DNA from: Psammoneis japonica
Taxonomy: Eukaryota
Length of the DNA stretch: 49,246 nucleotides
Reading direction: 5' to 3'
Assembly (NCBI GenBank): GCA_008632985.1
Contig: QPGO01000108.1
Span: 1-49,246 of the forward strand
Below are positions 18,343 to 44,829 of the stretch, piece by piece. A program made the position numbers and the translations under genes. Every line of letters starts with the position of its first letter. The stretch's first letter is position 1. The notes below the pieces were generated by a model. It searched no databases. It saw only the letters and a program-made list of their open reading frames with translations, and was not told the DNA's origin.

Positions 18343-18893
18343 TTTCGTTTCGCAAAAGGCAACCTTGTGTTTTTCAAGAGACGCCCTCCCAACAAAATTA
18401 TGCGAAAGAATAATTGTGCGTTGACTTTTTTTTGAACCGGTGGCTTTTGTATTGTGTGGCTCGTCGTGCGTAGCGCGACGGAAACCAGACGCGCGAAAAC
18501 GTGTCACGAATCATCAGTCCTGAGTCATTGGACTTCCTGTCGAAAAGCTGAAGCGCTGGCTACTCTAGAGAGCTGAGGCCTAGACTCTACCGGCACGGTG
18601 GAGGGCCCGGCCACCAGCTAGAAGCACCTGACACACTGTACAGCATGTGTGCTCTCTTCAAGAGTTCTCTAACTGCTGCTTGCTCTGGAGAGGGCGACTG
18701 CAAAGCTGTGAATTGACGAGCTTGCCCAGGCACCACAGAGCTGCTCGGGTGTTCCAGCACCAGGTGACATGCAAAATGACAATTTCATTGATTCATGTGT
18801 TGACTGCACTCAAATGGGCTGCAACAGAAGCAAGTGGCACTTGCACCACAAAGAGTGAAGGACTTGATTGCATGGCAAGGAAAGGAAGTGGGG

Positions 18894-21550
18894 CGACGTG
18901 TTCCAGCTCTGGGTGGGACCTCGCACTGCTGGACTCCCACTGCTCGAGTGTGGGTGGGCCCAAGTAATTCTAAAAACCGTCAACGGCCGTCACCATGTAA
19001 TTTGGCAGCATTTTGGTGCTCTGCACATGAGGCATTTATGCAGAAATTACGTGCGCACAATCAACAGGGGAAGCGAGCGTGGAGAAGAGACGACGCGAGC
19101 GAAGCACGAGCAAAGAGACCAACAATGATGCAAGAGCCGCAGAGAGACGCAAAGACAGCAATCCAACGATGTTGCAAGAGGGCACAAAAGAGAGAAAAGA
19201 TCCATTTGAGTTGGCACCATGTCTTCAATAAAAAGAACAAAGCAAGACAACATTGGCATGCACAAAAACTTGCACAGAGAAGCACGGCACCAGCGCCTGA
19301 AAAATGACCACATCTGCGGTGACATGGAACAACACAAGGAGGTGAGAACATGCTTTTCTACAAATGCAAAGCAACAACGAGCAAACAACCAATGTAAACT
19401 CACCAGCAGGGTCAAAACTTGGGGTGCCTGGATCGTCAATGGCGGGCAGGGAGGACAGATGGAAGAGAGGCAGTCTGGTGGTTCCACGGAGCAGGACGAC
19501 AAAAGCAGGCGGCAAATCGGCATGAGCAATGGCAGAAAGTTGGCACTTGGGATCAAGTGACTGGTCCGGTCAATGCAAATCGTGGCAGCAGCTTGGAGAA
19601 CGGAGGCAGCGCCATGGTGGTGCGGCACAGACCGGGGAGAGAAGAAGTGCCGCGGCGGAACGGCACAGAACGGTGACAGAGCCAAAAATGGTGACGGCGA
19701 CGGTGCAGACCCGTGGACTTAGACATCCCCATGTTCAAGTCCCATGCATCAAGATGCGGGACAAGGAGGTTCAAGGTGAGCGCCATTGCGAACGAGAACG
19801 GGGAAAAAGACGCATGATTCCACGAGAATCAGAACTCACCACATTTTGAGTCATTCTGACCCATTCCAGAGCCAGGACTCCCTCACATGGCACGAACCAA
19901 TGGAGCACAACACTGTCAAGCAGGGTGGGGGTCGGGAGGCGGTGTCGCACTGGTCAAATCGGCCAAAAGCGCCATTGTCGGAGGGAGCGGTGGTTGTCGA
20001 TCGGCCGCTCGGAAAAATTATGAGCCATCAACTCGACCGCGCACCGTTCGGAGTCGCACAGAATTTCTCGGCACAAAATGTACACAAGTGTGCGTCAGCA
20101 CAAAAATTGTGTAGAAGGGTTGTAAGTAGAACCGTCACTGTCTCTCTGTAGACTGCGAGGATTCTGCCGTTAAACTGCACCAGCATGTGCAATTCTACGT
20201 GGTGGATTTGAATCAATCCCACCAACGTTTTTGAATTTCGATCGTAATAACGGTTTTGGGTGCTGTGATGAACACACATGCATGTTTGAATTAAATGTCA
20301 TGTAAAACATTTATAATTTTGAATGATTGCGCGACTGCCAGTCGGCACGAAAAACCGTCGCCAATGAGGAAACCTGCAGTGCAAAAGCACTCTTTTGCAA
20401 CACTTTGGTGCTTCAGTCTTGCACATGAAAGCGCTCCCCAAGTGGTCAACGGTCAAATTGCATGTGCAAAATCCTCACAGCGGGAGACCCCATGTGCGCT
20501 CCCGTGTGCACTCAACGCGCCTCGGTTACGACCTTCTCGTTGGGTTGCACAATGGCGAGAACGACCCACAGCTTGTCGTGTGGCCTTCTCGTCGGGCTAA
20601 AGCCCTCCTCGTCGTCCACCCTCCTCGCTGGGGTCGTTCTCGCCATTGTGCAACCCGCCTCGTCGGTCTCCACCTCGTTGCTTGGACCCTTCTCGTCGGG
20701 TTCGGCGGGGCCGAACCCTCCTCGTCGGGCTCCATAAGTGCACAGGGCGCGTGCCTGCAGAACTGTGACACAATTGTTTTTTGTCATCCGTCATGTGTTT
20801 CGCACGTGCATTTCTGCGTGTTCTGTTGTAAAAAATTGTTCCACACTCAGCGTTGTAAAATCGCTAACTCGACTGCAATCTTGTTCGCAACTCGATTGTG
20901 GATCGCGATCGAAACGATTGCAATCTGCTGATTGTTTGTCTGGCGCTGGTCACAAAGATCGCAATCGTGTTCGCGATCGATCGCGATCGATTCGTGTCTA
21001 AAATTTAGTCGTGAATCGGGATTTTCATCGCACACGGGACTAAAAATTGACCGAAACGTGGCATGCATTCACGAAAAATGCGTTCTTGCACAGAGGGCGC
21101 CCCTGAGTGGGGCGCGCGAATTCCGCACGGTGGCCAATCGCGATTGCAATCGATTGTCACACGTGGCAAGCGCGCGCGCATTGCGATCTTTCGATTGCTG
21201 TGAAGCCACATGCAATCGATGGTTGCAATCCGTGATTGTTGGGAGAAAGTTGACGATTTTATAATGCTGTCCACACTGCCTGTTTTGCGAAGCCAAAGGC
21301 TTTCTGTTGTCTGCACTTGTGTCAACAAAAATGCGCTGGGCACATTCTTTAATGTCTAAAGAATGCACCCGGGCATGCTGCAAAGAATGCACTTCAAGTG
21401 TGGAGGAGGAGATGCGTTCGCAAAATTGCCTCTTTTTCTGTTGGCGATCATTCATGTGTCCATTGCTTGACAATTTTACTGCGGAGCTCGCACGTAGAAT
21501 TCTGCGGGCCCAATGTCACAAAAAGTCCCACCTGGGGCTGGAACCTGTCT
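18894..21550. mobile_element. 2.66-kb non-autonomous member (D) of the TGACGYGTTCCAG-TIR family, 2-bp TSD GG
   Basis: Left end cGACGTGTTCCAGctctgggtgggacctcgcactgct and right end gcggagctcgcacgtagaattctgcgggcccaatgtcaca..gtcccacctggggCTGGAACctGTCt match the two ends of MITE B; GG on both flanks. Confidence 0.8.
20542..20656. repeat. perfect 26-bp inverted repeat with 63-bp spacer
   Basis: GGGTTGCACAATGGCGAGAACGACCC (20542-20567) and its exact reverse complement (20631-20656). Confidence 0.9.
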
Positions 21551-22291
21551 GGCATTGAAGACCGATTGGCAAGGACAAAAGTGGGCTGGAGAAGTGACGT
21601 GCAGATCGTCAGCAGCATCTGTGGATCCGCGTGGAATTTGCACTGGAACCTTTTGCAGAAAATTTTCTGAGACAATGGAAAATTGTGAGAAATGACAACC
21701 AGTGTGTGAACCAACCACCGCAACACTCGTCATTTTCATCAGAGGCCGCAATGTGGTGTTGTTCACTTTCCTTTGGAAAATTTGGATCATTTGTTTTGAC
21801 AATTGTGCACAAAAATTAGCGACAGTTCATTTGTTTTTTGACGGTCAATTTGCGCTTGTCATTGCCATTTTATGTTGGCAATTGTTGCCGTTTTATTTTG
21901 CTTTTAAGTTGCCAAAGAATTTCAATGAGCCCTTTGTTGTTGAACAATGCTTTTTGTTTTGATCAATTTTTCACACATTTGTGGAATCGTTGACTTTGAC
22001 AGTGCTTTTCACTGGCTTCACCGCAGCCTTGCGTCACCACAGACAATGGCATTTCTCCCTCACCCCAGTCGGCCACGCAATTGCCTGGAGGAACACTGTC
22101 TCATTGTTTCCACCTGCACGCTCCAGTTGTCCAGTCAACAGGCCCCTGCCTGCATTTTGGTGCCTTTTCTGCATGCGCAGTTCTCTGCCCATTTCACAGC
22201 AGCACACCCTCTCCCCAAAATGCTTTTGATGAGAGGGTGTGCTGTTGTGAATCCTGTGCATTCTGCGTGAATCGGCAACTGACTGTTGGCC

Positions 22292-24016: not shown

Positions 24017-24142
24017 ACCGAGTGCCCTCCTGACCTCGATCACTTCTCCGAGGAACTCTCCGTCGCCCGTCAGGCTAACTCTCTGCACAAGGGGCACTTC
24101 GGGTGCCTTCGTGCATGCATTCCCACCCTTCTTCTGTTTATT

Positions 24143-26417
24143 TTGTTGAAGGGAGAGTCCAATTTGACACGTGACGGACCGGTTGCAGTTCAAAACGGCG
24201 AAGCACGCAGGACAAAGTTCGGTTGTGCTGGGAGAGCGTGTCACCCCAAGACGCCTGGTTCTGCCAAACTGGCTGAACCAAAGGCCACTTACGGACTTGA
24301 TGTCTTTGAGTCCGATGATGACTTTGACGCCAACGAGACCTCCAAAATCAAGGCAATGGCAGCCGACATCCTTGACTCGATTCAGCTTTGCGAAAATGAG
24401 GTAGAGCTGAAAAAACTGAGCAATCCACCACCATTTAACTGGTCACTTCGGTGCAAGGAATGCTCGCAAAAGTTGGGCAACGAAATGGGCTGTCTCTTCT
24501 TCAAACGTGAGGACGTTGCCATGCAGGGATTGTGCATTTCCCGGGGTCAAGTCTGTGATGGTCACTGTGACAATGAAAACTGCACCTGGCGTCGACACAG
24601 GAAGACAGCTGCCGGTTGCTTCTTTGTTGTGGATGCCTTTGGCGACATCTGGTCCTTCAAGGTTGTCACCAACAGCAGAAGGACCATTGGTGAACACTGC
24701 GACGACCAGTGACGTGTTCCAGCTGCACGTGAACCAAATCGTGCACAAAAACGACATTTGCGCGATTTTTGCGCGGTCCCTAACTTACGATCGAACTTTC
24801 ACCACCAAAAGCACAGATTTGTACAAACACACATGTTTTGCAACACTAACAAGACTCGTGTGAGTGTTGCAATGTCATTGTTATTGTGCATCTATGTTTT
24901 TCATTGCGTTAAAAGATTCGTAACACAACGGATGATTTTCGGCGAAAATATTGCCGTCATTTAGATGTTACCTAAATGTGTCTTTTTACGATGCTACTTG
25001 GTAGGTTTTCTACATACAAAAAAATCTCAGTACAAATCCACTGACGTACAATCAGCATTGAGTCTACTGAGGAAGTTTATGATACATATCCCATGAGGAT
25101 TTGAATGCCCCTCAAAAAACTATTTAAATGTTCATACTCTAGAAGCCTGTAAAAGTCAATCCGTCTAAGTATTTTTATTAAAATGCTGTGTACACTAAAA
25201 TATACATAAATTATATTCAAAATCCGATTGTCGTTTTGTGCGTCACCTGGGACTGGAACACGTCCAGTGCGACATGGAGCCCATGCTTGCTCGCATGCAC
25301 CACAATCGAGCTCAGCTTGATTTTGCACTCAAAGACTTGGACTTGCAGCACGATGGTCCCACCCACCCCAATGTGTCGCTTTCCAGCATTGCATTCAAGC
25401 ATCTTTCCCTTGACGACAACAGGCCGTGGGACAATGTTCTCATTGGTGGAGGTGGCGACTCTTCACATGTCGAGGTGCACATGGATCGACTCAAGTTCCC
25501 GACTTTTCCAGTCAGGGACTTTTCCACTTGTCTGCCCCAGTCACAGTGATCTGCCGTTTCAAGAACATTTTGTGCCGATCGGGTCCCGACCCAAAACGAG
25601 TCATTCGTTTGGCGATCCATGCTGGTTGTCCCACGGATGTCGCCGATTTTACCACGTGGGGGACAAGCATCTTCCTGACCTTTGTTGCGAAGGTGCTGAC
25701 CCGTTTGTCAACTTTGCCGATCACTTGCAGAACACATTTGGGGTGCCACACGGTGACCCACAGGTGGGTGGGATCAGCCCCACCAATTTGACGTACGAGA
25801 AATTTTGCGATGCATTTCTGGACCCTTGTTGCGTCGGAACCGCGAATGACCCAATTGACGCAATGGTGGAAGAAATCTGTGCTGCACTTCTCTGGACAAA
25901 CAACAACGTCGACACCAACGAGTTCTGTCCCAACTTGATGGAACAATGGTGCAAGGCAGCGTGTGATGCTTGGGCAGACCGGGGAGCAGATTTCAGTGAG
26001 ATTTGTCTCATGTTGGTGCTGCAATGTCTGGTGCTGGCAGGTGTCGCAGTGAAAGACCATCCAAGACTCAACGACATTGTCTGTCCTGTCTTCAATTCGG
26101 GAGCTGCCGCACAACTGGGGCACATTCAACCGGAAGAAAGGCCGCTCATGCACCAAAGGATGTCATCCGAAACAGGAGCCGAAGAGTGCTGTTGGAACGG
26201 AACTGAGCACAAACTTTGTGAGAATTCAGACAATCGCTGCACCTGTGTTTTTGATCATGTTTTCCGAGGACCCTGTTCAGGACAAGACCTGTTTGCCTTC
26301 TCTCCCTCTGGGCAGCATCTCCGCAAGCCATGTGGGTCAACTGAGTGTGAAATTTTGGAGTGTGTTGACGATGACCCCAACCTTCACCAATCACAAGACA
26401 ATGCTGAATCGCGCACA
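24143..26417 (+). pseudogene. hypermutated ORF of unknown function interrupted by MITE C and ending at MITE B
   Basis: Removing 24710-25267 gives in-frame ...EHCDDQ|CDMEPMLARM..., which continues with a frame change into ORF 25188..26420. Confidence 0.55.
24710..25265. mobile_element. MITE C (556 bp), TIR TGACGTGTTCCAG, 2-bp TSD AG
   Basis: TGACGTGTTCCAG ... CTGGAACACGTCc with AG on both flanks. The interior is AT-rich and TA-rich, unlike the flanks. Confidence 0.85.
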
Positions 26418-26792
26418 TGACGCGTTCCAGGTCTAGGTGGGACCTCGTACTGCTGAACTGTGACATCGATGGTTTTTTGAGTCTCGTCGCATGTCGCGCA
26501 CGTAGATTTCTACGTGATTTTTTCGACATTTTGTGTCATTTTACGGTGCACTTGTTGAGCGATCCGTCCAACAACTTTTGACATTTTTTGTTACAGCGCG
26601 ATTCTACAATGTCTTAAGAATCGCGTAGGGCAGGCGAAGTTGCAAAAACGTCGAGTGGCAAGAGGCATAATTGCACCACAAACTTGGCCGTTTGTCACAT
26701 CCATTAATTAAATTCTCGTACTACGGAGCTCGCACGTAGAATTCTGCGGGCCCAATGTCACAAGGAGTCCCACCTAGGGCTGGAACGCGTCA
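26418..26792. mobile_element. MITE copy B (375 bp), inverted relative to copy A, 2-bp TSD CA
   Basis: Perfect 13-bp TIRs; CA at 26416-17 and 26793-94; aligns end to end with the reverse complement of 7381-7774. Confidence 0.92.
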
Positions 26793-26867
26793 CATTATTT
26801 GTGTGTGAATCAGCCGTGCAATCAGACGGTGCCAGTGTTTTCTCTGCTGTTGATGGACCACCCGCGG

Positions 26868-27046
26868 ACAATGAACTTAGCTCATTGTCATCGGAGGAGT
26901 CTAGACTCACCGCAAACAATGAACTTGGCTCATTGTCTTCAGAGGATTGTCGATTTGATGCGGAGAAAGAACCAAGTTCATTGGATTCGGAGGAGTCTCG
27001 ACTCACCGCAGACAATGAACTCAGCTCATTGTCTTTGGAGGAGTCT
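26868..27046 (+). repeat. 48-bp (16-codon) tandem repeat, about 3.7 units
   Basis: Units start at 26868, 26916, 26964 and 27012; peptide DNELSSLSSEESRLTA-like. Confidence 0.85.
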
Positions 27047-28314
27047 GTGTTGTCGGAGGACTGCTCATGTCCTGATTCTGACTGCCGCGTTCCAATTGTC
27101 ACGGCAGATTCTGTTGTCCTTCAGCCGCAGGATCAAGAATCCGATGAAGATGACACAAGTGACGCAACCGCGTACGATCGACCCGAGCCACCGGTCCTTT
27201 TACAAGTGCAAGATTTTGACATGGACAAACATGTGAGTGCTGTTTTTGAGTGAGTCTATCAACAGCCGAAGAACTCCTGCAATTGTTTGGTGTCATGTTT
27301 TTCACAAATCTCAGCCCGCAACATGACTCCTCCTGTGCTTTTGTTTCACATTGTCATGTCATCCCCAGACAAGACGGAGGTGCAAATGTCCTGTGGCTTT
27401 GCATGACGAGGCCCATCATGGCCGGAAACCTGACATCAGATGAGATGTGTTCGGACCGTGGCGTGGAGGCTGTCCAATCCACTCAGCAAAGAAGAGATGA
27501 GGCAAGGTGTCAAGTCGTTCAGGATCTCCACACGAACTCAAAGGTTCGTGCATGCACTGTGTCCCTGCAGGATGGCAGCCCCGCTTGTCACTTGAATTGC
27601 AACACACCCGCCAAGAATTTTGCCCAAAGGGTCAAGACGCGGTTTGGAACAGTGATTGATTTTAAGAAAAGTGGCTTCGTTCAGATCTGCATGGACTGCC
27701 GCTGGATGCAAAAAGGGGAGTGGCTGCAGTCGACACTTGGAAATCGCTTCTTTGGCAAAAACCTGAGGGATGTGATGGAAACGTTGTTTCATCCAAAGCT
27801 CCAGAGGTGCCGCGTCATAATCCCGTGCACCATTTGGTCACTGGCCCAAACCATGCGCAATTTGGATGACATTTTGGAGTGCACACTGGTGCGGGCCATG
27901 ACACAGGACATGGCATGTGAAACAGTGACACTCTGCCAGGCTTCCCAGGAGATTGTGGAGGAGTGCCGTGTGGATTGGCTGGGAAAACCATCTGACCAGG
28001 AAGCATCACATTTGGGAGTCACGGAACAGGAAATTCGGGAAACGCTGCCACATGAAGAAGCCAATTCAGTCCCAGAGTTCCTGCGAGAGTGTGGAAATTA
28101 CAACCCGAAGGAACCGTTCCCGTTCCTGTCCTTCGAGAGGAGAATTCCCAATTTTGGGGATGAGTTAAGGAAATGGCCTGGGAGTCATTTGCTGCGCTGG
28201 TTCCCAGTCGGATTTGTGAGCAGATTGTCAAAGCAGGTGAGTGAACGTTGTCTCTGTTGTCCTTGTCGTCCCAACCAAGTTTTCTGCTGCTGTTGTCGGA
28301 TGCTCACATGCTTT

Positions 28315-31300: not shown

Positions 31301-31713
31301 CCAAGAGCAGAAATGTCATCATCAAACGGTGGTGACCATGGTTCATCACTTCTGTCATTTTCGTTGTCAGTGGACCCAAGCCCAATGTTCGCTGCGGACG
31401 CACCTCGTCTGGACCGCCTCAGCCGTGGCTGTGACGCGTCATCTGATGAGGAGGAAATGTCAAGATCAACCGACCCACATCTGCGAGAGAATTTGTTGCT
31501 GACGTTGGAAGATTTAGCCGCAACCCTTGCTGACAACTCTGGCATTGGGCAGTTTGTGACTGCATCGCGACGTGACAAGTTGGACATCTCTTGAGCAAAC
31601 GAAAAACACAGTGGGTCATGATGGAAATGGGTGAGCATCCGTTTGAAGGATCGTTTGCAACGGGGACATGCCGCCACACCACCCCCACCCTGCCAACCAC
31701 CATTTCCTTCCAT
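28315..31713 (-). pseudogene. Plavaka-like (EnSpm/CACTA-related) DNA transposase, hypermutated and broken near the 3' end
   Basis: N-terminal CPRC..H finger; LTIYVDKT, WRVLGCIPDL, RDCHKVL, DAKSGDCLVGRCG, DMMHLFENG and KLQKLHELLH..NFDAGLGE..K motifs; C-terminal CRAHPDHNSEGPVHDWANVNF in ORF 28561..28917, continuing into 28315..28560. Confidence 0.8.
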
Positions 31714-32146
31714 TTGTTGTTGCAGCAGGTTTGTGGGCTGCCCAAACACATGTGTGTTCGAATGGCAGCACCGGTTCAGTTCGTGAAAAGTGAAATGGTT
31801 TGGGCGGCAAGGAAGGAAAACACGACACGAATTGGCACGAAAACATGGGTGCATTGTGTTCTTCCCATCAATGAAAACATTGACAGGTGAGAATGAATCG
31901 AATGTGTTGCAATGATTGACAACTTTGAGCATGAATGACTGGTTGCAAATGTTGTTTTTCTACGGAAAGGAAAAAATAAGTTGTGACGTGACAAGCCGTG
32001 ATGCGTTGCAGCGAGAAGTCCAGGAGGGGTGCACCCACACCTGCTGCAGCACCAGACACAAACGTTGCAATCAACAATGAATGCTGTTGTACAAAATGAC
32101 AGCTTGACGGCACATTGGCCAAACAACTGCTGGAGGATTTGAAAGT

Positions 32147-33487
32147 TTGACAATCATGACGGCAGATGGAAGGCGACAAATCATGGAATCGGAGTGCAAG
32201 GCGGCTTTTGATGAATTGGATCGTTTGACACAAAGTTCGCCACAAGGTGGGATGGTGCATTCTGATGACACGGGTGTGGCTTTGATCGAGTTTGAGAGCG
32301 GTGCACATGCAGTTAACCCGCACCTGCGCCATGATGCGATGGACCTGCAACGCATGATGAATGAGGACGACATCGAAGGGAGGTGGCGGGAACTGTGGAA
32401 GCAGAGGTGCAACCACATGGTTTGGCTGCACGAACATGTGAGTGATTGGAGCACAGAAGCAATTGAGTGCACGCACGCCAGCACAGGCATGATCTCAATT
32501 CACGACAACCTGAGCTGGTTGAATGGCGTCGTCAACCGTGGGGTCAATGCCCGCCATTGCCCGGAGCATTGGGGCTGTGTCGCGACTCACCAAGACAGGC
32601 AAGGAAGGATGTGCTGTGTCTGCAGTGCTCTGCACAATGAAGGAGAGAAAGAGCTGAGGGATGAATTTGCAGCGGGTGCGTGTGATGATGCAAAACTGGT
32701 CATTGACAGGGGAGACATTTCGAGATTGAGACGGAATTTGAGCATCAGCATGCCGACCTGTGGCATGGACAAGACAGGCACTTGCGGACTGTTGGGAGAA
32801 ACATTGGCAAGGGGAGGCACATGCGGACTTGCAATGGACAAGAAGGGAATTGTTTGCGATGCATTAAAACTGGCGAAGTGGCTCCAGCGTGACATCGTGC
32901 AAGACAACCATGAAAGACTTTGGTTCTGTGAGCAAATGGAGTTCTTCAGGTCATCTCCATGGACAGTCAATGAATGGACACTGGACATTGTCTGGAAGGA
33001 GGATGGTGAGTGGGAGAAATTTCAAAGCAGGAGAAAGGAAAAGCGTTGGGTGGAGAGACGTCGTCACATTGAAGTTAACAAATTCGTGAGAATGGTCGGA
33101 GCGGAGACGAGGGCTTTCACCCACATGACTGACTGTTCCGACATCGGGCGATGCATCAAGTTGAGAGTTACGAAGTTAGAGGGTGATGATGAATTGGACT
33201 GGAGAAAACGATTTGGCGCCAAAAAGGATGGATGTGCTTGGGCCCCAACAGCAAACCGGAATGACGTCAAAGCAGGTGAGGGGTTTGTTCATTGCAGCAA
33301 AAACAGTGAAAACAACTTTTGTGGGTGCACGTTTCACAATGATGTTTTGAACAAAACACTTTTGCAAGCAATTTGCACTGTGGAAGTGGATTTCGAAATT
33401 GCAGCAAAAGAGAGGTTTGAACTGGAATTCGCTAAAAGATTTGGCCAATTCTCAGTTATGTTGCATTTGAGAAAAAGGAATCATTGA
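32147..33487 (+). pseudogene. hypermutated ORF of unknown function, divergent from the transposase
   Basis: 446-aa protein-like ORF with no Tyr found; no family recognised. Confidence 0.5.
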
Positions 33488-33536
33488 TGGCAACTGCGAG
33501 ATTTTCAGCATTAAAGAGAGGTTTGAAAATTTTCCA

Positions 33537-34813
33537 ATGGCAAAAATAACTGGGACACAAGGCATGGAGCCACCCACAATTGGCGACAATGGCAAGGAAG
33601 AAGAAGAAAGGAACTGTGGGGGTGGCTGGAGATCAACCAACAAGCCCAAGGCTGGCCGCAGCGTTGGTGCGGGTGGGAGCCACTGGGGATCACCAGTCTG
33701 TGAAGAGAGAGGCAGAAGAGGTGGCGCGGAAGGAACTTTTCCCAAAGGCAAAATTCCTTGTCAAGGCGGACATGGCAAGCAGTGGCAAAGTGTCGCGGCT
33801 CATCAGGAAAAAGACAGCCGGAGGAAATTGCAGCAAGCGAGACTGGGCAGGAGCGTGGGAAGACTGGGCAAAGAAGTGCGTCATGTGTGCAATCAACGCG
33901 AAAAGGAGCACGGTCACTCAGGCGATCAAGAACAATGCAACGGCTGGCAAGTGTTTTGTGGTGCACGGCATGTTGAGTGTGGCTGCACTTGACACAACTG
34001 CACCTTCATTTGTTGAAGTCATGTTGACAGAGAGTGAAGCAGAGGAGACACACAGTCAGAAGCTGGCAGCAAAGGGTGGAGGTGGGAAGAAGAGCAAGAA
34101 GAGGAAGAAGAATGATCGCACGGAAGAGGAAGAGCCGTTCCTGGTGACTTGGGGGGAGGAGACTGTGACAACGATTGTGGAGGACAAGCGCAAGAACAAG
34201 GAAGCATGTGCTTGGTTCCACAAAAACATCCTGAAATTCACAAAGAGCACCGCCACATGGAGAAGGAAGGCAGAGTCGGGTGAGACAAAGGCAGCCGGTC
34301 TGGCTGCAGCGAGCGACGAGGCTCTGGCGCTGTTGACACTGGAAAACTGCTGGAAGAGTTGGGAGCACAAGGCACGTCATGACAAGACTGTTGCAGCAGG
34401 GGGGGGGGTTGGACGAAGAAGATGAGGAAGAGTCGGAACCAACACCCAAGTGCACGGACCCGTCAAGGCAACGAGACTCGTGGAAAGATGCAGGGATCAA
34501 GCGATTCAACGAACTGCTTGCGGCAGCGAAGAAAGACAGGTTGAGTGAGGAGGGCATGCAGTTCGACACATGGTGCAGCGAAGGCAAGAAAAGGAAGAGT
34601 GACGAAAGAGGCAAGGGACCAAAAAGAAAGAAAAAGCAGGTGGAGGAGGCAAGAACACAGGCAACGATGGAGCTTTCAAGTGACGACAAGGAGAAGGAGG
34701 AAGAGGCAACGGACGAGAACAGAGGAGACAAGGACAGCGATGAAGGGGAGGAGGACAGTGATGCGGAAAGCGATGCGAATGTAGATGCAGATGGTGAGCG
34801 AGCTGCGGCATGA
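33537..34813 (+). pseudogene. transposon accessory ORF (SDEAxALLxLENxW...WxxxGxxRFNxL type) with frameshifts
   Basis: ELFPKAKF..W..INAKRSTVTQAIK, then SDEALALLTLENCW and SWKDAGIKRFNELL, with an acidic tail. Paralog at 6891-7870. Confidence 0.65.
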
Positions 34814-36489
34814 AAAGGCAGCGGAGGCTTTTGTTAGTGTGACAATGGAAAGAGGACAAGCAATGCAGCAGGTTTCAATGTCAACAGTTGCGAGGCTTGA
34901 CAAAGCGTCAAAGGGATCATTGTTTTGTGATCTAACCTTTCATTTGACAACCAGTGCATGCAGTGGAACCAGTGCATGCAATGGAAGGTTCTCTTAACCA
35001 ACGCAACGCAATGATCAGCATTGAATTGTCATTGACCAAAACGTTGCGAACATTGCTTTCAAAAGGTAAAAAGTGACGGAATTCTGACAGTTGAGGGAGG
35101 GGTCCCACAGGCAAAGGAGGGGTCCCATGGTGAAAAATGCAATGCTGTGATGTGCAATGAAAAATCATGTTCTACACAACTCACTCAATGTGAAACTGTT
35201 GCATTCATGCCCACAATGGCATTGAAAATTGCCCACAAGAAGGGTGGTCACGATCACTGCATTTCACGATCTGATGTTCCACTGATGAACTTTGCTCATC
35301 ATGCTGCAATGAGGATGCACCCTTGGCAAACGTGGACAGAATGGGCTTGTTGGAGCCAAATCAACACCATCTGAGAAGGGCAACATCAGCACAAGAAGGT
35401 GCATGGAAACCTGTGTAGAAGCTGAGGGCATGCAGCTGACATTGAAAAAGCAACATGGCTGCACATGGAAGCAGCTGCTTTCCACCTCATGACAAAAAAA
35501 ACACCGCTGTTGAAACCATCATGTTTTGCTCAGTCTGCAGGTGCCATTTTTCTTTTGTTTGCTGCTGGCTGTGGCAGCTGCGGGCTCACGGAGATTTTGG
35601 CAACTTTCAAATGCAAAGTCATTGCACCCTCTTCTTGGGCCATTTTGACCTCCTTCTGTGAAAAGCACTCAACACAAAATGACACCATTGAATCCTCTGC
35701 ACATCCAAACTGGCCCACGTTGACCACACTTCTGTTTCATGCAGGTCCATTTTGGTGACCTCATGCACATTGACTTTGGGCTGATCATCCATCAAGACCT
35801 GCAAATTTTTTTTTATGTGCAACAGAGGTGTTTTTGCATGAAATGTGGCACAACTCACCATTTTTTCCTTTGCAGCGCATCTCTCATGTCTGCTTCACAT
35901 TGTCGACCAGTCTGCACCACTTTCACAACAGCAAAGAAGAAGTCAAAAAAAAAACACCATGGCAATTGGCACAAAAAAACACATCTCAACAGCGTGCATT
36001 GATTGTTCCTCTTTCTGGTGGTTCTGTGAGAGTCACTTCACCAAAGGACAAAATCACACCCAGCAACAAGGTGTCAAATTTTTGAGTCATTTCCAACATG
36101 TGGTTTGCCATGGAGGGAATTTTTTGGACATTGTGTTCAAGTCAACACTGTTCAAGACAATGAGTGCATTTCAAGGCCTTGGCAATTTGATCCTTGGCAA
36201 TCAAGGCATGTTGTGCATGCTTGGAGTTGGTCAGATGGGGGCTTGCAGAGGGCTTCTTTGATGGTGACTGGCTGCCCCCAGCTGTGTTCTTGGTCTGAAA
36301 GGTCCATTGCGGCAATTGTCAACATGCAGACAGTTTTTGTTTGCAGTTTGTTGTTGCACTGTAGACTGACAATGGTGTTTTGTGTTTGTGCAGTGTCGCT
36401 GTGTGCACATCAGTGCAATGAGCACAATGCAATGATTGTCACTTTGAAGATCAAGGAATGACACAAGCAGTTGTGAGTCTGGATGCTCC

Positions 36490-36633
36490 ATGGCAACAAA
36501 CTGAGAAAGAAGAGCCACACCCATCACAGTTGGAGGGGGTGTTGGGTGGAGGCAGGCCACAGTGGACACAGAGGGAGACCCTGAAGGCATGCTTCTCATG
36601 ATGACAAATCTCCCAGAATGACAACTCAACCAC
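36490..36633 (-). mobile_element. short relic of a CRE-like non-LTR element (zinc-knuckle region)
   Basis: FRVSLCVHCGLPPPNTPSNCDGCGSSFSV resembles the FRDxLxxRYGxxPxxLPxxCDGCGxxFSxxH pattern. Confidence 0.6.
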
Positions 36634-38118
36634 ATCATGTCAATTCAATTGTCTTGGGTGTCACTCCTGATTTGATTGTCTCAGTGATGATGCTCGCAGT
36701 TTAGACAGCCAACGTGCTCCCAAATGCCCATGGGGGTTGAGACAAACAAAACCATGCTCCGGCTGATGGGGCACCAACAAATGCAGTGAAACAATTGGGC
36801 AAGTGTGCACAACAGCCAGCCAGCTGGCCAGCTGGCTGCTGCAGTGATCCACTGAGGTCCAGTCACAATCACAGTGCAAAAAATGGAAGATGTCCTTGTC
36901 ATTGACACCAAACTCAAACTCCCAATTCTTGTTCTTCTCACAATGCTTGATCATCTCAAACACTTCCATTGCCCACCAAAGCCATGCCTTGACAGGAGTT
37001 GTCACCATGGGAACCTTTGCAAGGACCTTTGACACAGCAAGTGGCTCCTCGCCAGATGCCGGTGAGCCAGTGACAACATTCTGCAGGGCACGAAATGCCG
37101 GGACCATGTTCTTCTTGTTGAACAATTTTGTCTTGTTGCCCTCCATCATGGCCTTTGCCATTTTGAACTTGTCTGGCAAGGAATGGGTGCCCACTTTTTC
37201 GTGGCAGCCCACCTTCACCAAGGCAGTTTGGCTGCACTTGCAGGACAGGCTGTGTGAATGACAGTCCCGGCTGACCGTGTCATGTTTGTTGCTGACATTC
37301 ACCTTGACATCAGTGTAAAGAGAACAGCCAAAGTCTCCAACCCAAAGTTCCTTGAGAATGTTGGAAGGCAACTCACACTTTGTGACAAGACCTTGAAGTC
37401 AACAAAAGTTGGCATCTGTCTTCAATTTGGGAGCATCACTGCATGTGAGGAGCGTCTTGGCTTTGCTGTCATTGCAGAGCTTTTGTGGAAGTTTGCCCAG
37501 CTAAAGATGGCAGAGAACACAAAAGAAGATGCGGCCATCTCAGTTGGGGATGACAAGCAGGGGTTGTTCTCCACTTGTTGTTTTCTGGTGTTTGGTCCAT
37601 CAATCGGCCAGAAGAGTGTGAAAAAAGCTGTGCTCTTCCTTGTCGCCATCATGCAAGGTCAAGAGAATGCTTTCATGTGTGGTGTGCGAACAGCCATTCA
37701 CCATCAAGTGGACAAGAGGATCTGGCTCATTGGCGTGCATGCCAGCAGATTTGGTGCAATTGTTTGTTGGCATGCCCTGTGCATGTTTGCTTGTTTTCAT
37801 TTTATTTTTTCAGTGGAACAGAACCACAAGCAAAGGAAAGTTGAGTGCGCTGGCAATGGCGGCATGGAGAGAGGAGAGAGAGTTTCCATGATGTCGTCAA
37901 TCCACGATCCACTGTCGATGAAGGGGGGGGGGCATGTCACAATCCCGCATGATCACAGCATGAACTGGCGGTGCACTGTGCTGCCCTCCAAGTCCAATTT
38001 TCAACACAAATGATTCATCACTGAACAACAGCCACACTGTCAGAAGGGTTTCACACAGCCTCAAAGTTGCCATTGCCTGTCATTGCGTTCCTCATTTGTG
38101 CACGTTGTTTCACGTTGA

Positions 38119-39968
38119 TTGTTGGAGGGAGAAAATGTGGTGGCTGTGTTTTTTTGCAGTGTGCAGCCTGGCGCAAACTCTCTGCTCCACCCAGCTGCCA
38201 GAGCAGAGAGCAACAAATGCAAAAATGAAAATTTCCTCTTCAAAGCGATCGAACATGCTTTGTGCATGAAAAGTGACAGGTTTTCAGCAATGTTGACGAC
38301 AACCTTGAGGCAAAAAGCCATCACCCTCAATGTGTCAAAAGTTTTGTTGTTGCAAACAGATTTCATGTTTGCACTTGCACTCCACAACAATTCAACATGG
38401 CAGAGTTTGCCAATGAGGTTTCCATGCAACTGCAATCAGACTTCCTTCACAGAAGAGAGGGTGACAGCGACGACAACGGCAACCAAATTCTTCCCCCAAA
38501 CGGAGCTGTGTTGGAGCTGGGGGGTGGCTTCACAGTGTGTTGCAACCCAAGAAAAATGTGGCCGGCCTCATTGTTGAGGAGTTGATGCCGGAGAGAATCA
38601 TCGTCCAAGAGAGGAGATGGAAATGGCCTTTGAAGAACTTCTCCACAATGGGTCCAATGCTCTCACCATGTTTTCTGGAAGCCCTGGTCCCTGGCATTGG
38701 AAAATCCACACTCTTGTTCCTTGTTGCGCTCTGCAGGGTTGTCACCAAGAACGACAAAGTTGTCCACCTCCATTGGGCGGATGACACAGACAAACTTGTC
38801 AGCATTTTTGCAATGGAGCACAAAGAGAACCATGTTTTTATCTGCTTTTCTAGAGAGGTGTCCCAGACACTCGATGCAGCAGTGAAATGTGAAAGCCTTC
38901 GTCATTGTTTTGATCATGGAGTCTCTTGGACGGATCCCTCTGTCATGGGTGTTGCGGATGGTCCAAAAAGCCCCGAGTTTTCAAGATTTTCCAAACTCAC
39001 TCATGGATGTGCATCCGGCAGTGATGCAAGGATTGAGCATCACATGGTTTGGAAAACATTCAATGCAGCCATGGGTGGCTGGAAGAAGGTGGATCTGGAA
39101 ACCGCCATTGTGGCCCAATTGAAGCTTGACCCGACAGAGATGAATCCAGAGTCAACCCAATTTTTTGACCAAGAAAAGTTTGATGCTGTGCATTTTGTGC
39201 ATGGAGGGCGCATTTGTGGTTTCCCACAATCCTGCCAATCACAAGACGGCGTCGATGTGACATTCGCCGACCATGTTGTTGCTCCCATTTCCAAGCAGCA
39301 GGCTTCACTTTTGCTCTCTCACTCCAATTGCCGATCAACGACGAGCATGTGGACTCTCTGCAAACTGTCTTTTGGATGGCAAATGGATCTGCGGACAATG
39401 TTGTGTTGCACGTGACTTGGGCTGCATGTTGCAAAAGCTGAGGATGAACATCAGTGAGGAAGAGCTTTTCTCCAGCTGCCAAAAGGCAGAGGCAGAGGGC
39501 AACAAGGGGGCTCAGTCAAACCATTTTAAAGAAATGCTGCACTGGTGTTTTTGCCTGGAGGGCACATCCCCATCAATTGCTCAATCAGTTCACACTGAAG
39601 GAAGTGGTGCTGAAGGTGTCGGCAAGCTTGTGCAGAAGAATCAGCACTGGATTCCATCAGCTCCCAATTTTGCAAACATTGACTCTGCTGTGGCTGGCAG
39701 TGATGAGAAGGTTTGGTGCTGCCAACTCACTGTTTCTAGAAAACATTCCCACAAGAAGTGGCATTTACAAAACACCTTTCTCAACCACACTTCATTCTTG
39801 GATGACATGAACGAGGTTGTCATTGTGTTTGTTGTCCCACAGGGGACAGAAATTGCTCTGCCAGACACTGGCGGCAAGGCTGAAACTGACATTTTCCAAG
39901 TCAACTGCTCTGCACTCGATGCAGTTCTTTCTTCCGTTGGACTCCTGGCAGCTGGAGTGGCAGTGTGA
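38119..39968 (+). pseudogene. Crinkler/RHS-like P-loop NTPase + restriction-endonuclease-fold gene relic
   Basis: Walker A (G)SPGIGKSTLLFL is broken by a 7-bp duplication at ~38682-38695; Walker-B-like VADG follows; C-terminal WIPSAPNFANIDSAV..CQLTVSRKH..VIVFVVP. Confidence 0.7.
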
Positions 39969-42336
39969 TCTGGTCTTTGACAGTTGACAGCACAGTCCAT
40001 TGCTCAAAATCACAACACTGGAGTTCATCCAGCACTGCAGCATGAGACCATGCACCCCAACAAACAAGTCTGCTTGTTTGCTTTGTTAAATTGTCAGCTC
40101 TGTTGCCTTGTTTTAACCATGAATGCCAGATGTGTTTTGCCACCTGACCCTGGCTGCAGAGCAAGTTTGCAACTGCAAGCAAGCATTTGATTTCATGATT
40201 GACGATTGACTGCAAGTTCAGGTTCATTTGCTTGACTTTCTCACAGTCAAGAGAAACAGTCTTCAAACAGAGGATGTTGAAAGGGCACTCTGTGAGAAGT
40301 GCCGCAGTGCCATGGGGTGGGGTGCAAGAAGTGGCACTGTGGGATGTCACACAATGATGCACATGAAGCCAACCCTGACACATGTGCAACCAAGCCCTTC
40401 AACATCCTCATCACAACAACAAGTCTGCTGGGCTCACAGCAAATGCAATGGCATGTGCAGTGCTGGAGCAGCATCCTTTCTGTTTTCAATGCCCGCGGAA
40501 GCATCAGAACAAAAAATGAACCTTCACGTCAATGATGCGTGCACAACAAATGCAGCGCTTGCAGCAGGCAAGAAGTCAATGCAATGACTGGCCAGCCTCA
40601 ATCCATCTGACTCAGATGTGCTGCCAGACTGTTTTACAAGCAAAGCATGCTGAATCAGCTGCCGACCATTCCACTGCATTCTTGAGGTGAGATGAAAGTC
40701 TGTTCTGTGTGGGGCATCAGTTGGGCCATGAAGTCACTTCTTTTGTTGCAACTTTTGCAACATGTTGGTGCTGGGCAGGTCAAAAATCAAAAACCTCATT
40801 GACACTGCCAGTGTTGAGCACAATCATGTTGCCTCCTCCGGATTGGCCCAAGTCCATTGTCTTTGTCCATCAGCACATCCGCAGCCCTTTGCTGCGCCAC
40901 TTTGCTTTTGCTTCAGGGGCATCAGGTTTCTCTCCCTCCATTGTCATTTGTCACACAATGGGTGGCTGTCATCCATTTCGGCTGGAGGCAAGAGGCAAAG
41001 ATGCAACAATGCAAAAGAGCAAGCCACACACAAGACACGGAACAATTGAGAGGCCACAGCACAAGTTCTTGAGTGTGGCTGGAACAACAACAGAGCAAAA
41101 ACACAAGCAACCACCCCGTGTGTGCCAAGAATTTGAATGGATCTCCACAGCAGCCACCAAAGTTGTCTTGTTTCTTGAGCCCAGCACTTTTGAGCATCAT
41201 CTGCAGCTCGCCCTTCTTCCACAGCGTGCAAGCATCCGTGGCGCCACCGACAAAAAGAGCAAAGAGAGAGCAGCAAGTTTTCAGCCTTCCTCCTGGCAGG
41301 AGCTTTGATGTCGGGATTCCTGTCAGGCAAAGCACTGTTGCTGACAGACCAGCGCTGTGCAGCATGTGTGCGCTCTCTTCAGGAGCTCTCACTTGACAGA
41401 AGGGCGCCAAAGTTGAAAATTGACCGGAGAGAGCTTGTGCTGCTGGCTGGGGGTTCAGGGTGCTGTTTTTGTCCTGCAAACTCTCTTTTTGCCATTTTGT
41501 CCCCAGATCTCATGCACAAAGGGCTGATTTTCTTTTGTCTGTGAAAGCTTGCTCTGGAGCTGCGCCGCCATCTTGCTTCACAAGCAGCAAAAGCTGGGCG
41601 GGCCTCGCTTCTTGAGCACACCAACTTGCCAAAGCAAGCAACAAGTTCTTGCTTGTCACATTGTTTCATCTGTGTCATCCCATGGCTTCATCGGAGAGAT
41701 TCGGTTGGATTCATGCGTCATTCTACTGCCGGTAGAACGCAATGTGATGGCTGTGCGGCCTAAAAATTCACTGCACTGTACGGTGTTTGATGATGATTCG
41801 GGGGACCAAAAGAAGATTCATTGGATTAGTCGGAGTTGCCATATGAAAGATTCGTTGTAGAAATCTACGGGAAAAACGTACGACGAATCTGCGGAGGTGA
41901 GTGAGCCAGTCACGACGAAATTTCAGATCGGCGGCGACCACTTTTTTCTTTTTTTCTCTGCGTTTGTAAAAGGGCACTGTGTGTAAGTCGCGAGACACTT
42001 TGGCCGTTGTTTGTCGTTCGATGATTTTTGCGTGAAAAAGCGTGTATATGAGCCTTGTATATGTCTTGCTTGTGTGAAATGCATTTGTTGGAGAGCTGGA
42101 GCCTGGAGCGTACTTTTGTTCATCATCGCGTCTCAACGCTCCTCTTCCAGCATTTGAGAGAGGTGAGCGAAGATTCACGAGATTCAGCCGCACGGGCTTG
42201 CGAGTACGAGATTCGCCGTAAGATTCTACGCGTCCGATACGTGTCTCCCGGCGACACTCCCACTTTTTCTGACACCTCATAATGCTATTGCTTTCGACGT
42301 AACACAGAGCGGCTCTTCGGGACAAAGACAGGTATC

Positions 42337-44760: not shown

Positions 44761-44829
44761 GACACCGAAGATCAAAATTCGATTTGACATCTTCTGCTCT
44801 CACATTTTTCGTTCGTCGTCAAATCAAAC

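What the first reader, a model, noticed from the sequence alone, without database searches (positions are those of the whole stretch)
18620..41720. Repeat-targeted TpA->TpG/CpA hypermutation: candidate undescribed genome-defence system ('reverse RIP')
Seen: the transposon blocks (~1-1240, 5870-13200, 18620-41720, 47521-49246) have lost nearly all TA dinucleotides while gene islands retain them. Paralogous copies differ mainly by TA vs TG/CA, and conserved Tyr codons read Cys (TGY) or His (CAY). TG and CA are the same A:T->G:C event on either strand of the palindromic TpA. Established: fungal RIP (CpA->TpA) and 5mC decay (CpG->TpG) run toward AT, and typical eukaryotic 6mA is at ApT, so none of them explains this. 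Inference: an enzyme-driven process aimed at repeats or heterochromatin, such as DNA adenine deamination, a modified-A intermediate or thymine oxidation. I know of no description of it but cannot search the literature. The effector gene was not recognised in this window.
Basis: partly seen in the sequence, partly recalled or inferred. Interest (0 to 1): 0.95.

Follow-up and report, generated by a model that had tools for sequence, protein, structure and literature searches.

The report
TpA-to-TpG/CpA hypermutation of diatom transposons
In this diatom, mobile-element DNA has had almost every TA step converted to TG or CA while neighbouring host genes are untouched, which is the same odd mutation signature first reported in 2026 in an unrelated alga and points to a still unidentified DNA-editing defence.

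Summary
Across 18620-41720 there are 170 TA where 785 are expected at the window's own gene-island level. The edges are very sharp: no TA for 1,088 nt, then 16 in the next 388 nt. The lost TA (-615) plus lost CG (-632) reappear as TG+CA (+1347), and the other 12 dinucleotides are unchanged (-98 of 17,458).

The direction is TA->TG/CA:
- Three unrelated element-encoded ORFs have 0-0.2% Tyr; 23 of their 24 aligned homologs have 1.1-5.8%. Cys or His sits where homologs have Tyr.
- 18 of 18 related transposase loci from metagenomes have normal TA.
- At one conserved Tyr codon, this copy reads TGC and other copies in the genome read CAC.

Both strands are hit equally, and a cut-and-paste (Plavaka-type) DNA transposon is affected, so the change happens in DNA, not RNA.

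- It is not "repeat-targeted". The TA-poorest block is single-copy, and very high-copy MITEs nested in the blocks keep their TA.
- It is not undescribed. A 2026 bioRxiv preprint shows the same TpA-only hypermutation live in Bigelowiella natans.

My searches found no report in diatoms. About half of the TG/CA excess comes from ordinary CpG decay. The enzyme is unknown.

The parts
18620..41720 (.). Composite block of nested mobile elements that has lost nearly all TpA. It is heterogeneous inside: TA o/e ranges from 0.03 to 0.33 apart from the young MITE inserts.
   Evidence: 170 TA against 785 expected at island level. The right edge is sharp at 41724.
25265..35419 (-). Plavaka/KDZ-type cut-and-paste DNA transposon, multi-copy in this genome, interrupted by a MITE. 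TA o/e is about 0.08 and CG about 0.66.
   Evidence: homologs carry PF18759; architecture shared with metagenome loci; summed depth 1000-4300 against 64 for single copy; the repeated part ends at 35419.
28330..31932 (-). Relic of the transposase gene. The open frame is 28999-31932. Homology continues to 28330 through two in-frame TGA stops.
   Evidence: Tyr is 2 of 977 residues against 1.8-3.8% in 8 homologs. Of 176 homolog-Tyr cells the window has Cys at 45, His at 24 and Tyr at 7.
30643..30645 (-). Codon 430 of the transposase. It is TGC (Cys) in the window, CAC (His) in 2 other contigs of the same genome, and Tyr in 7 of 8 distant homologs.
   Evidence: (rows 30644, 30645). This shows independent TA->TG and TA->CA hits on one ancestral TAC.
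33580..34425 (+). Accessory ORF of the Plavaka-type element, conserved next to the transposase in related loci.
   Evidence: tblastx matches at 33646-34645 to L001, L003, L004 and L006-L009.
26418..26792 (+). MITE with 26-nt terminal inverted repeats, inserted into the TA-free transposon. It keeps 16 TA (o/e 0.63).
   Evidence: An empty-site contig joins 26416 to 26797.
24711..25264 (.). Related MITE-like element with similar terminal repeats. TA is retained (39 TA, o/e 0.72).
   Evidence: (I12). Summed depth is 22,441.
35420..41720 (+). Single-copy relic element, the TA-poorest (14 TA, o/e ~0.04) and CG-poorest (o/e ~0.26) part.
   Evidence: (depth 64-68 in 7 of 8 bins from 36007, 108 in one (38008-38674), as in the host genes; one contig spans 35419-44000), 27, 66.
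38522..39965 (+). Relic gene for a ~515-aa protein with a Walker-A-like motif. It is split over three frames and has 0 Tyr in its 316-aa longest frame.
   Evidence: Its homolog P0136 has Tyr where the window has His or Cys at 6 positions.
5870..13200 (.). Second TA-depleted block (36 TA against 250 expected, CG o/e 0.39). It holds a fragment related to the Plavaka element end (6984-7379).
7381..7774 (-). Second copy of the MITE. TA is retained (27 TA, o/e 0.90).
47521..49246 (-). TA-depleted, GC-rich repeat running off the window. Its ORF at 48280-49245 has diatom homologs and 0 Tyr.
   Evidence: 7 TA against 37 expected.
1..1240 (-). TA-depleted repeat at the left end of the window. It is unclassified.
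   Evidence: 0-3 TA per 200 nt over 1-1000.

Best explanation
The host is a diatom. Its mobile elements have undergone a near-saturating A:T->G:C transition confined to the dinucleotide TpA. The change acts in DNA and on both strands, giving TpG or CpA depending on the strand.

Affected elements:
- a Plavaka-type cut-and-paste transposon;
- an unclassified element encoding a P-loop-like protein;
- at least one further repeat family.

The process stops at element ends. It hits copies independently after they have dispersed. It does not need the target to be repeated now. It destroys Tyr codons and all TAA/TAG stops. In part of the elements, ordinary CpG->TpG/CpA decay of methylated DNA is superimposed.

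The most likely cause is an enzyme recruited to silenced or foreign DNA that deaminates adenine in 5'-TA-3' on either strand. The inosine is then read as G. This would be the same kind of process seen live in Bigelowiella natans mutation-accumulation lines.

Shown here: the signature, its direction, its restriction to mobile DNA, that it acts in DNA, and that paralogs were hit independently.

Inferred: that an enzyme does it, that the enzyme is an adenine deaminase, how it is aimed, and that it serves as a defence.
For: Dinucleotide budget. TA -615, CG -632, TG+CA +1347, all other dinucleotides -98 of 17,458. The same closure holds in four sub-blocks.

Direction.
- Tyr is 2 of 977, 0 of 322 and 0 of 316 residues in three element ORFs. 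In 23 of the 24 aligned homologs it is 1.1-5.8%; the exception is the 99-aa P0140, with 0%.
- Where homologs have Tyr, the window has Cys/His at 69 of 176, 20 of 59 and 21 of 39 cells, and Tyr at 7, 0 and 0. Phe is kept at 45-51% and Trp at 56-79%.
- 18 of 18 metagenome loci of the same transposase family have TA o/e 0.50-0.68.
- At codon 430 the window has TGC, other copies have CAC, and 7 of 8 homologs have Tyr.

Restriction to mobile DNA.
- The edges are sharp.
- Island intergenic TA o/e is 0.50-0.71.

Acts in DNA, on both strands.
- A DNA transposon is affected.
- TG and CA counts do not differ in 14 of 17 element segments. The 3 exceptions go in opposite directions.
- TG and CA outcomes are interleaved, with runs-test z from +0.25 to +1.6.

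Recent activity. In the MITE pair, 10 of 20 substitutions are TA<->TG/CA, and in 9 of those 10 the 26k copy is the one that lacks the TA.

Precedent. De novo TpA-only A->G/T->C hypermutation of single-copy integrated viral DNA in B. natans (bioRxiv 10.64898/2026.01.13.699255; Results read).
Against: - No effector gene is in the window and no genome is held, so the enzyme is pure inference.
- A->G on one strand of the palindromic TpA cannot be told from T->C on the other. Adenine deamination and thymine-side chemistry fit equally.
- The MITEs nested in the blocks keep most of their TA. Either the process is not acting continuously on the whole region, or short elements escape.
- TG-vs-CA doublets between paralogs can also come from an ancestral CG. 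Only codon 430 could be polarised by homologs.
- Only 40 of 1057 paralog differences could be seen.
- All sequencing runs come from one sample, which may be the assembly's source.
Confidence: 0.72

Rival explanations
1. Mutagenic by-product of a base modification. Silenced mobile DNA carries a TpA-directed modification, such as an oxidised or glycosylated thymine (5hmU or J-like) or a modified adenine. That base mispairs or deaminates at a raised rate, much as 5mC causes CpG decay. The mutation would be a side effect of an epigenetic mark, not the action of a dedicated mutator.
For: - TpA is palindromic and both strands are hit equally, as expected for a symmetric mark.
- TA loss travels with CpG decay, itself the footprint of a mark, in the oldest-looking blocks.
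- The edges follow element ends as chromatin marks do.
- Surviving TA sit in a non-random context (chi-square 87, 9 df, P 6.5e-15). TTAA and CTAA/TTAG are enriched about 4-fold. ATAT and ATAC/GTAT are 0 of 116.
Against: - No such mark at TpA turned up in my searches or reading (which were not aimed at base modifications), and no modification data can be reached here.
- Blocks at 21-24k and 47.5-49.2k have lost TA with little CpG loss (CG o/e 0.79-0.87), so the two processes are separable.
- In B. natans the process is episodic between lines. That fits a switched enzyme better than a constitutive mark.
Confidence: 0.15
2. A true repeat-induced process, a 'reverse RIP'. Homology between copies is sensed and triggers the TpA mutation.
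For: - Most affected DNA belongs to repeated families. Summed contig depth over 24-35.3k is 1000-80,000 against 64 for single copy.
- Paralogs were hit independently.
Against: - The TA-poorest 6.3 kb (35420-41720) has no second copy at >=80% identity.
- The highest-copy sequences in the window, the MITEs, keep TA o/e 0.63-0.90.
- The hypermutated viral region of B. natans is single-copy.
- The single-copy block could be the last survivor of an old family, and MITEs of 375-554 bp could lie under a length threshold. This rival is weakened, not excluded.
Confidence: 0.07
3. RNA editing (ADAR- or ADAT-like, with a 5'-U preference) of element transcripts, fixed in the genome by reverse transcription.
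For: The A->G change with a T/U before it matches the neighbour preference of A-to-I RNA editors, as stated in the B. natans preprint's Discussion.
Against: - The best-characterised victim is a cut-and-paste DNA transposon with no RNA intermediate.
- Non-coding parts are equally affected.
- TG and CA are symmetric and interleaved. Editing of one transcript strand would give one product.
Confidence: 0.03
4. No host process at all. Either the elements arrived with, or evolved, a TA-free composition (avoiding a TA-reading nuclease or TA-targeting insertions), or the TA loss is a sequencing or assembly artefact, for example miscalls at modified bases.
For: - Word avoidance is known in phages.
- All runs found belong to one sample that may be the assembly's source.
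Against: - Three unrelated element families share the loss.
- Conserved Tyr is replaced by Cys/His, and the genes carry in-frame stops and frameshifts. That is decay, not adaptation.
- Relatives elsewhere have normal TA.
- Paralogs differ TG against CA at one Tyr codon.
- A separately built k-mer contig reproduces 8.6 kb with 5 letter differences, at the same depth as the host genes.
- Strand-specific miscalls would create CG and break the contigs. CG is not raised.
- MITEs with normal TA lie directly against TA-free DNA.
Confidence: 0.03

Closest known systems
TpA-specific hypermutation of integrated NCLDV and virophage DNA in Bigelowiella natans (Mettrop et al., bioRxiv 10.64898/2026.01.13.699255; abstract, Results and Discussion read)
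   Same: - Only TpA is hit, giving TpG or CpA according to strand.
- It is confined to foreign or mobile DNA beside normal host DNA.
- A single-copy target is affected.
- Transposon-type genes (DDE, reverse transcriptase) are among the TpA-depleted genes.
- The mechanism is unknown; an ADAT2-like adenine deaminase is proposed.
   Different: - The host here is a diatom (stramenopile), not a chlorarachniophyte (rhizarian).
- The targets here are transposons, and I found no viral relatives.
- The loss is near saturation: TA o/e 0.03-0.12, against 0.45 reported for their NCLDV region.
- It is overlaid with CpG decay.
- Here it is only a historical footprint. They measured it live (~6e-7 per site per generation).
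Fungal repeat-induced point mutation (RIP)
   Same: Dinucleotide-specific transition hypermutation that inactivates mobile elements in place and leaves host genes alone.
   Different: - The direction is opposite. RIP makes TpA from CpA; here TpA is destroyed.
- RIP needs duplicated sequence. Here a single-copy block is the most affected and high-copy MITEs are largely spared.
CpG decay of methylated transposons (5mC deamination). CpG methylation of transposons by DNMT5a is shown in the diatom Phaeodactylum tricornutum (PMC9998398, abstract passages)
   Same: - It yields the same products, TpG and CpA.
- It is present in these blocks and accounts for about half of the TG/CA surplus.
   Different: - It cannot remove TpA or turn Tyr codons into Cys/His codons.
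- Some blocks have lost TA with little CG loss.
Deaminase editing of retroelements and viruses in animals (APOBEC3 C->U on cDNA; ADAR A->I on dsRNA with a 5'-U preference)
   Same: Context-specific deamination used against mobile or viral nucleic acid. ADAR's neighbour preference matches TpA.
   Different: - APOBEC changes C, not A.
- ADAR acts on RNA and, on the preprint's account, is described in metazoan lineages.
- Here a DNA transposon is hit symmetrically on both strands.

Membership tests
Bigelowiella-type TpA hypermutation of foreign DNA | Substitutions are A->G / T->C at TpA only, producing TpG/CpA | tested here: met
   Dinucleotide budget. Tyr->Cys/His. MITE pair, 10 of 20 substitutions. 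Codon 430. CpG decay is an additional, separate signal.
Bigelowiella-type TpA hypermutation of foreign DNA | Confined to integrated foreign or mobile DNA; adjacent host DNA is normal | tested here: met
   sharp edges, and island intergenic TA o/e 0.50-0.71.
Bigelowiella-type TpA hypermutation of foreign DNA | The target need not be repeated | tested here: met
   35420-41720 is single-copy at >=80% identity in the contigs of run X1.
Bigelowiella-type TpA hypermutation of foreign DNA | Measured de novo rate about 1000-fold above background, episodic between lines | not testable with these tools
   This needs mutation-accumulation lines or resequencing. Only a historical footprint is visible here.
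Bigelowiella-type TpA hypermutation of foreign DNA | Same effector as in B. natans (itself unidentified; an ADAT2-like candidate is proposed) | not testable with these tools
   No genome is held for this window and there is no deaminase in the window.
Fungal RIP | C->T transitions (CpA->TpA) that raise TpA | tested here: not met
   TpA is lost, not gained. The direction is shown by homologs.
Fungal RIP | Dependence on sequence duplication | tested here: not met
   The single-copy block is the most depleted. High-copy MITEs keep TA o/e 0.63-0.90. An old lost family or a length threshold could mask dependence.
CpG decay by cytosine methylation | CpG deficit matched by TpG/CpA gain | tested here: met
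   CG 879 against 1511 expected. It explains about half of the TG/CA gain but none of the TA loss.
RNA editing fixed by retrotransposition (ADAR-like) | The target passes through an RNA intermediate, and the products are asymmetric between strands | tested here: not met
   A Plavaka-type DNA transposon is affected. TG is about equal to CA in 14 of 17 element segments.
Plavaka / KDZ transposase (PF18759), for the ORF at 28999-31932 | Match to the Plavaka transposase profile | tested here: inconclusive
   The window ORF itself gives no Pfam hit. It aligns over 98% of the searched region (residues 250-977) to P0122 (E 9e-162), and P0122 passes PF18759 (28.4 bits, cut-off 26.3). 6 of the 15 hits carry PF18759 in precomputed annotation. 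Membership is by transitive homology.

The most novel reading that the evidence does not exclude
Diatoms and chlorarachniophytes share an old defence, possibly common to the whole stramenopile-alveolate-rhizarian group, that reads the TpA step in silenced foreign DNA and rewrites it to TpG/CpA. It does not depend on repetition. In diatoms it runs to saturation on every class of autonomous element, alongside cytosine methylation. The agent is either a DNA adenine deaminase or a so far unknown TpA-directed base modification whose decay causes the mutation. This would be a second 'methylation-like' mutagenic mark in eukaryotes.
Probability: 0.3. Interest if true: 0.95.

Novelty: new member of a known kind. 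Interest (0 to 1): 0.78.

Why it matters
A mutational process that runs from AT to GC, reads one dinucleotide, and is aimed only at mobile DNA is very unusual. Its one live demonstration (B. natans, 2026 preprint) has no mechanism.

What a diatom case adds:
- Lineage. A saturated version in a diatom shows the process is not a quirk of one alga.
- Targets. It extends them from integrated viruses to ordinary transposons.
- Dependence on repeats. It shows the process does not depend on repetition.
- A route to the enzyme. Many diatom genomes exist, so presence or absence of the footprint can be profiled against deaminase, TET/JBP and methyltransferase genes. Diatoms can also be transformed.

It has practical consequences too:
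- Such elements lose Tyr codons and TAA/TAG stops. They then give long false ORFs.
- They escape profile searches. No Pfam hit was found in any element ORF here.
- Transposon annotation and gene prediction in these genomes are therefore biased.

Tried and rejected
- Whole genome: none is held. No genome-wide scan, family consensus or effector search was possible.
- Pfam on 17 and then 101 ORFs: no family in any element ORF, and 4 of 101 ORFs with hits, all host genes.
- Pfam on homologs of the P-loop-like gene: only a sub-threshold AAA_10 match.
- Viral origin, as in B. natans: no relative of either the transposase or the P-loop-like protein in viral contigs.
- Expression: no RNA holder listed.
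- Paralog spectrum from laid contigs: only 40 of 1057 letter differences were shown. The totals by kind were 808 transitions and 246 transversions, given without context. A context-resolved, polarised spectrum could not be made. My first classification of those rows was corrected once five adjacent pairs proved to be TG-vs-CA doublets.
- Strand bias of TG vs CA: none consistent.
- Strand-coordinated tracts: none (runs test).
- Earlier findings of this scan: nothing on this genome or this phenomenon.
- Literature on diatoms: searches found no report.
  - A 2025 diatom transposon preprint (10.1101/2025.10.24.684338) has 0 occurrences of dinucleotide, hypermut, deamin or TpA.
  - The P. tricornutum mutation-accumulation paper (PMC6604790, passages) reports a GC->AT bias, and the passages shown for my search terms mention no TpA hot spot.
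  - Supplements of these papers were not seen.
- Selection against UpA in RNA and GC-biased gene conversion: considered and rejected. Neither is specific to TpA at this strength (o/e 0.03), neither is delimited by element ends, and neither would replace conserved Tyr.

Full report
**1. What the window is.**

The DEAD-box helicase gene at 16786-18507 (-) finds its best relatives, at 50-75% identity, in proteins whose named sources are all diatoms: Pseudo-nitzschia, Cyclostephanos, Stephanodiscus, Grammatophora, Thalassiosira and Cylindrotheca. The window is therefore diatom nuclear DNA with no close sequenced relative in that collection. No whole genome is held for it.

Host genes sit in three islands: about 3.7-5.6k, 13.3-18.5k and 41.8-47.3k. 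Their Pfam hits are ordinary: DUF6824 with CRAL/TRIO, LRR, DEAD/Helicase_C with CCCH, and CS. The rest is mobile-element DNA.

**2.

- Whole window. TA observed/expected (o/e) is 0.25, with CA 1.45 and TG 1.41.
- 1-kb windows. The islands have 0.41-0.79.
- The finding itself (18620-41720). There are 170 TA against 1449 expected from base composition. Against the islands' own o/e of 0.54, 785 are expected (Poisson P 3e-156).
- Edges. They are very sharp. There is no TA between 40636 and 41723, then 16 TA in 41724-42111. Comparable steps occur at 18670/18965 and 47466/47726.
- Control. Five non-coding stretches of the islands have TA o/e 0.50-0.71, so single-copy non-coding DNA is not affected.

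**3. Where the TA went.**

Measured against island o/e values, 18620-41720 shows the following:

| Dinucleotide class | Difference from expectation |
|---|---|
| TA | -615 |
| CG | -632 |
| TG+CA | +1347 |
| the other twelve together | -98 of 17,458 |

The same closure holds in each sub-block:

| Sub-block | TA | CG | TG+CA |
|---|---|---|---|
| Plavaka-type element | -275 | -259 | +556 |
| 35420-41700 | -214 | -289 | +532 |
| 5.9-12.5k | -214 | -219 | +472 |
| 47521-49246 | -30 | -23 | +65 |

Two processes therefore feed TG/CA. The other is loss of TpA. They can be separated: 21-24k and the window ends have lost TA (o/e 0.10-0.11) with CG at 0.79-0.87.

**4. Direction.**

- *Transposase relic.* The ORF at 28999-31932 (-) is related to transposases, some of which carry the Plavaka profile PF18759.
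  - 15 proteins were found at E<=0.001; the top hit has E 2.6e-163. Six of the 15 carry PF18759 in precomputed annotation.
  - P0122 passes the curated cut-off.
  - The window ORF has 2 Tyr in 977 residues (0.2%). Eight homologs have 1.8-3.8%. Cys is 5.0% and His 4.8%, against 2.1-2.9% and 2.5-3.8% in the homologs.
  - Of 176 aligned cells where a homolog has Tyr, the window has Cys at 45, His at 24, Phe at 17, Arg at 17, Val at 9 and Tyr at 7 (the top six as listed; the remaining 57 cells were not listed). Phe is kept in 152 of 301 cells and Trp in 39 of 70.
- *Two further ORFs behave the same way*.
  - 38465-39412 (+) has homologs found by an exhaustive search (17 at E<=0.001; the best is 47% identical, E 1.8e-64). 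It has 0 Tyr in 316 residues. Of 39 homolog-Tyr cells it has His at 15, Phe at 9 and Cys at 6.
  - 48280-49245 (-) has 46 homologs, including one from the diatom Fragilaria crotonensis. It has 0 Tyr in 322 residues. Of 59 homolog-Tyr cells it has His at 16, Phe at 16 and Cys at 4.
  - TAY->TGY gives Cys and TAY->CAY gives His.
- *Relatives elsewhere.* All 18 of 18 metagenome loci encoding relatives of the transposase have TA o/e 0.50-0.68 over the locus and 0.33-0.61 over the matched part. TA poverty is not a family trait.
- *One site polarised directly.* At transposase codon 430 the window reads TGC. Two other contigs of the same genome read CAC. Seven of 8 distant homologs have Tyr. So one ancestral TAC was hit once on each strand, in different copies.
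- *MITE copies.* The two copies in the window differ by 20 substitutions: 10 TA<->TG/CA, 2 CG<->TG/CA, 3 other transitions and 5 transversions. In 9 of the 10, the copy at 26418-26792 has lost the TA.

**5. What is and is not hit.**

- *Hit, multi-copy.* The Plavaka-type element spans about 25265-35419. It has a transposase on the minus strand and an accessory gene on the plus strand, and this layout is conserved in the metagenome loci. Summed contig depth there is 1000-4300 against 64 for single copy.
- *Hit, single-copy.* The TA-poorest stretch, 35420-41720 (14 TA), has depth 64-68 in 7 of the 8 bins from 36007 on, and 108 in one bin (38008-38674). It lies on one 11.7-kb contig that runs on into the host genes. 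It has no second copy at >=80% identity. It holds a decayed gene for a ~515-aa protein with a Walker-A-like motif, now split over three frames.
- *Largely spared.* Three short elements with related terminal inverted repeats keep TA o/e 0.90, 0.72 and 0.63. They lie at 7381-7774, 24711-25264 and 26418-26792.
  - The DNA directly next to one of them (25265-26417) has 2 TA in 1153 nt.
  - These are the most repeated sequences in the window, with summed depths of 22,441 and 80,637. One contig shows the empty site, joining 26416 to 26797.

The process is therefore not 'repeat-induced' in the sense of RIP. Three explanations for the spared MITEs remain open: they arrived after the main episode, they are too short, or they lack whatever attracts the process. 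The 9 private TA losses in one MITE copy show that it is not fully exempt.

**6. DNA or RNA, one strand or two.**

- A cut-and-paste transposon has no RNA intermediate.
- TG and CA counts do not differ in 14 of 17 element segments. The three exceptions (P 0.005-0.016) go in opposite directions.
- TG and CA are interleaved with no long single-product tracts. Runs-test z is +0.25 to +1.6 in the blocks and -0.75 to -1.8 in the islands.
- Within the one MITE copy, the 9 losses are 4 TG and 5 CA in mixed order.

This points to a DNA-level process that reaches both strands.

**7. Context of the survivors (tentative).**

The 116 TA left in the blocks differ in flanks from the 457 island TA (chi-square 87, 9 df, P 6.5e-15). 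TTAA and CTAA/TTAG are about 4-fold enriched. ATAT and ATAC/GTAT are 0 of 116, against 5% and 14% in the islands.

Read simply, TA next to ATA/TAT goes first and TA next to TTA/TAA goes last. Some survivors may be new mutations, so this needs the polarised spectrum.

**8. Artefact check.**

A public run (X1) holds 98% of the sampled words of 38000-46000. Its independently built contigs reproduce 35419-44000 with 5 letter differences, none of them restoring a TA.

All three runs come from one sample, which may be the assembly's source, so this is not independent material. Even so, strand-specific miscalls at a modified TpA would create CG and would shatter k-mer contigs. Neither is seen.

**9. 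What is known.**

Full-text searches found one description of this signature: Mettrop et al., bioRxiv 10.64898/2026.01.13.699255. I read the abstract, all of Results and all of Discussion.

In B. natans mutation-accumulation lines:
- 231 of 302 nuclear single-nucleotide mutations fall in two integrated viral regions. One of these, the NCLDV insertion, was confirmed to be single-copy.
- All but one are A->G or T->C, and all of those fall on TpA.
- Only some of the lines show it.
- TpA-depleted genes are enriched for DDE and reverse-transcriptase domains.
- An ADAT2-like protein is proposed as the agent.

The preprint does not mention diatoms or stramenopiles. A 2025 diatom transposon preprint has no occurrence of dinucleotide, hypermut, deamin or TpA. 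The P. tricornutum mutation-accumulation paper reports the usual GC->AT bias (passages). CpG methylation of diatom transposons is established (PMC9998398, abstract passages), which fits the CpG decay seen here. I did not see the supplements of any of these papers.

**10. Verdict.**

It is a directional hypermutation of TpA restricted to mobile elements, and it is best explained by an enzyme aimed at silenced or foreign DNA. It is not repeat-dependent on this evidence, it is mixed with CpG decay, and it is no longer undescribed.

It works like the B. natans process. Whether it is the same system cannot be tested without the effector. I rate it a new member of a just-described kind. Interest is high because:
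- the mechanism is open;
- the diatom footprint is far stronger (TA o/e 0.03-0.12 against 0.45);
- the targets are ordinary transposons;
- comparative genomics across diatoms could find the enzyme.

Noticed in passing
window 26418-26792, 7381-7774 (-), 24711-25264: A MITE family with ~26-nt terminal inverted repeats. Its summed contig depth is 22,441-80,637 against 64 for single-copy DNA, so it has hundreds to about a thousand copy-equivalents. One contig shows the empty insertion site (26416 joined to 26797).
   Followed up: partly
L017 (metagenome contig JFJP01053926.1), whole locus: A distant relative of the same transposase family sits in DNA with CG o/e 0.02 but normal TA (0.55). This is the reverse picture, extreme CpG loss only, in another organism.
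   Followed up: no
P0140 (99 aa) and P0158 (182 aa), relatives found: These public relatives are themselves Tyr-poor and Cys- or His-rich (P0140: Tyr 0%, Cys 5.1%; P0158: Tyr 1.1%, His 7.1%). They may be other hypermutated copies in public data. Their origin was not looked up.
   Followed up: no
window 42337-43950 (+): A host ORF of 537 aa with two copies of a ~95-residue Cys/His-containing domain and no Pfam match.
   Followed up: no
window 19900-21000: An intermediate stretch inside the block, with TA o/e 0.33 but CG o/e 1.21. It holds a perfect 26-nt inverted repeat at 20542-20567 / 20631-20656. Its nature is unknown.
   Followed up: no
window 47044-47198 and 47366-47520: A 155-bp direct duplication at 98.7% identity, right at the edge of the last TA-depleted block.
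   Followed up: no
window 1251-3692 (-): A long GC-rich ORF (813 codons including a run of N) with TA o/e about 0.26-0.43. It is only partly depleted, gave no Pfam hit and is unclassified.
   Followed up: no
window 28999-29001 and about 28558-28560 (-): Two in-frame TGA stops interrupt the transposase homology, which continues to 28330. With TAA and TAG erased, TGA is the only stop left in the blocks. All six frames therefore carry long spurious ORFs.
   Followed up: partly
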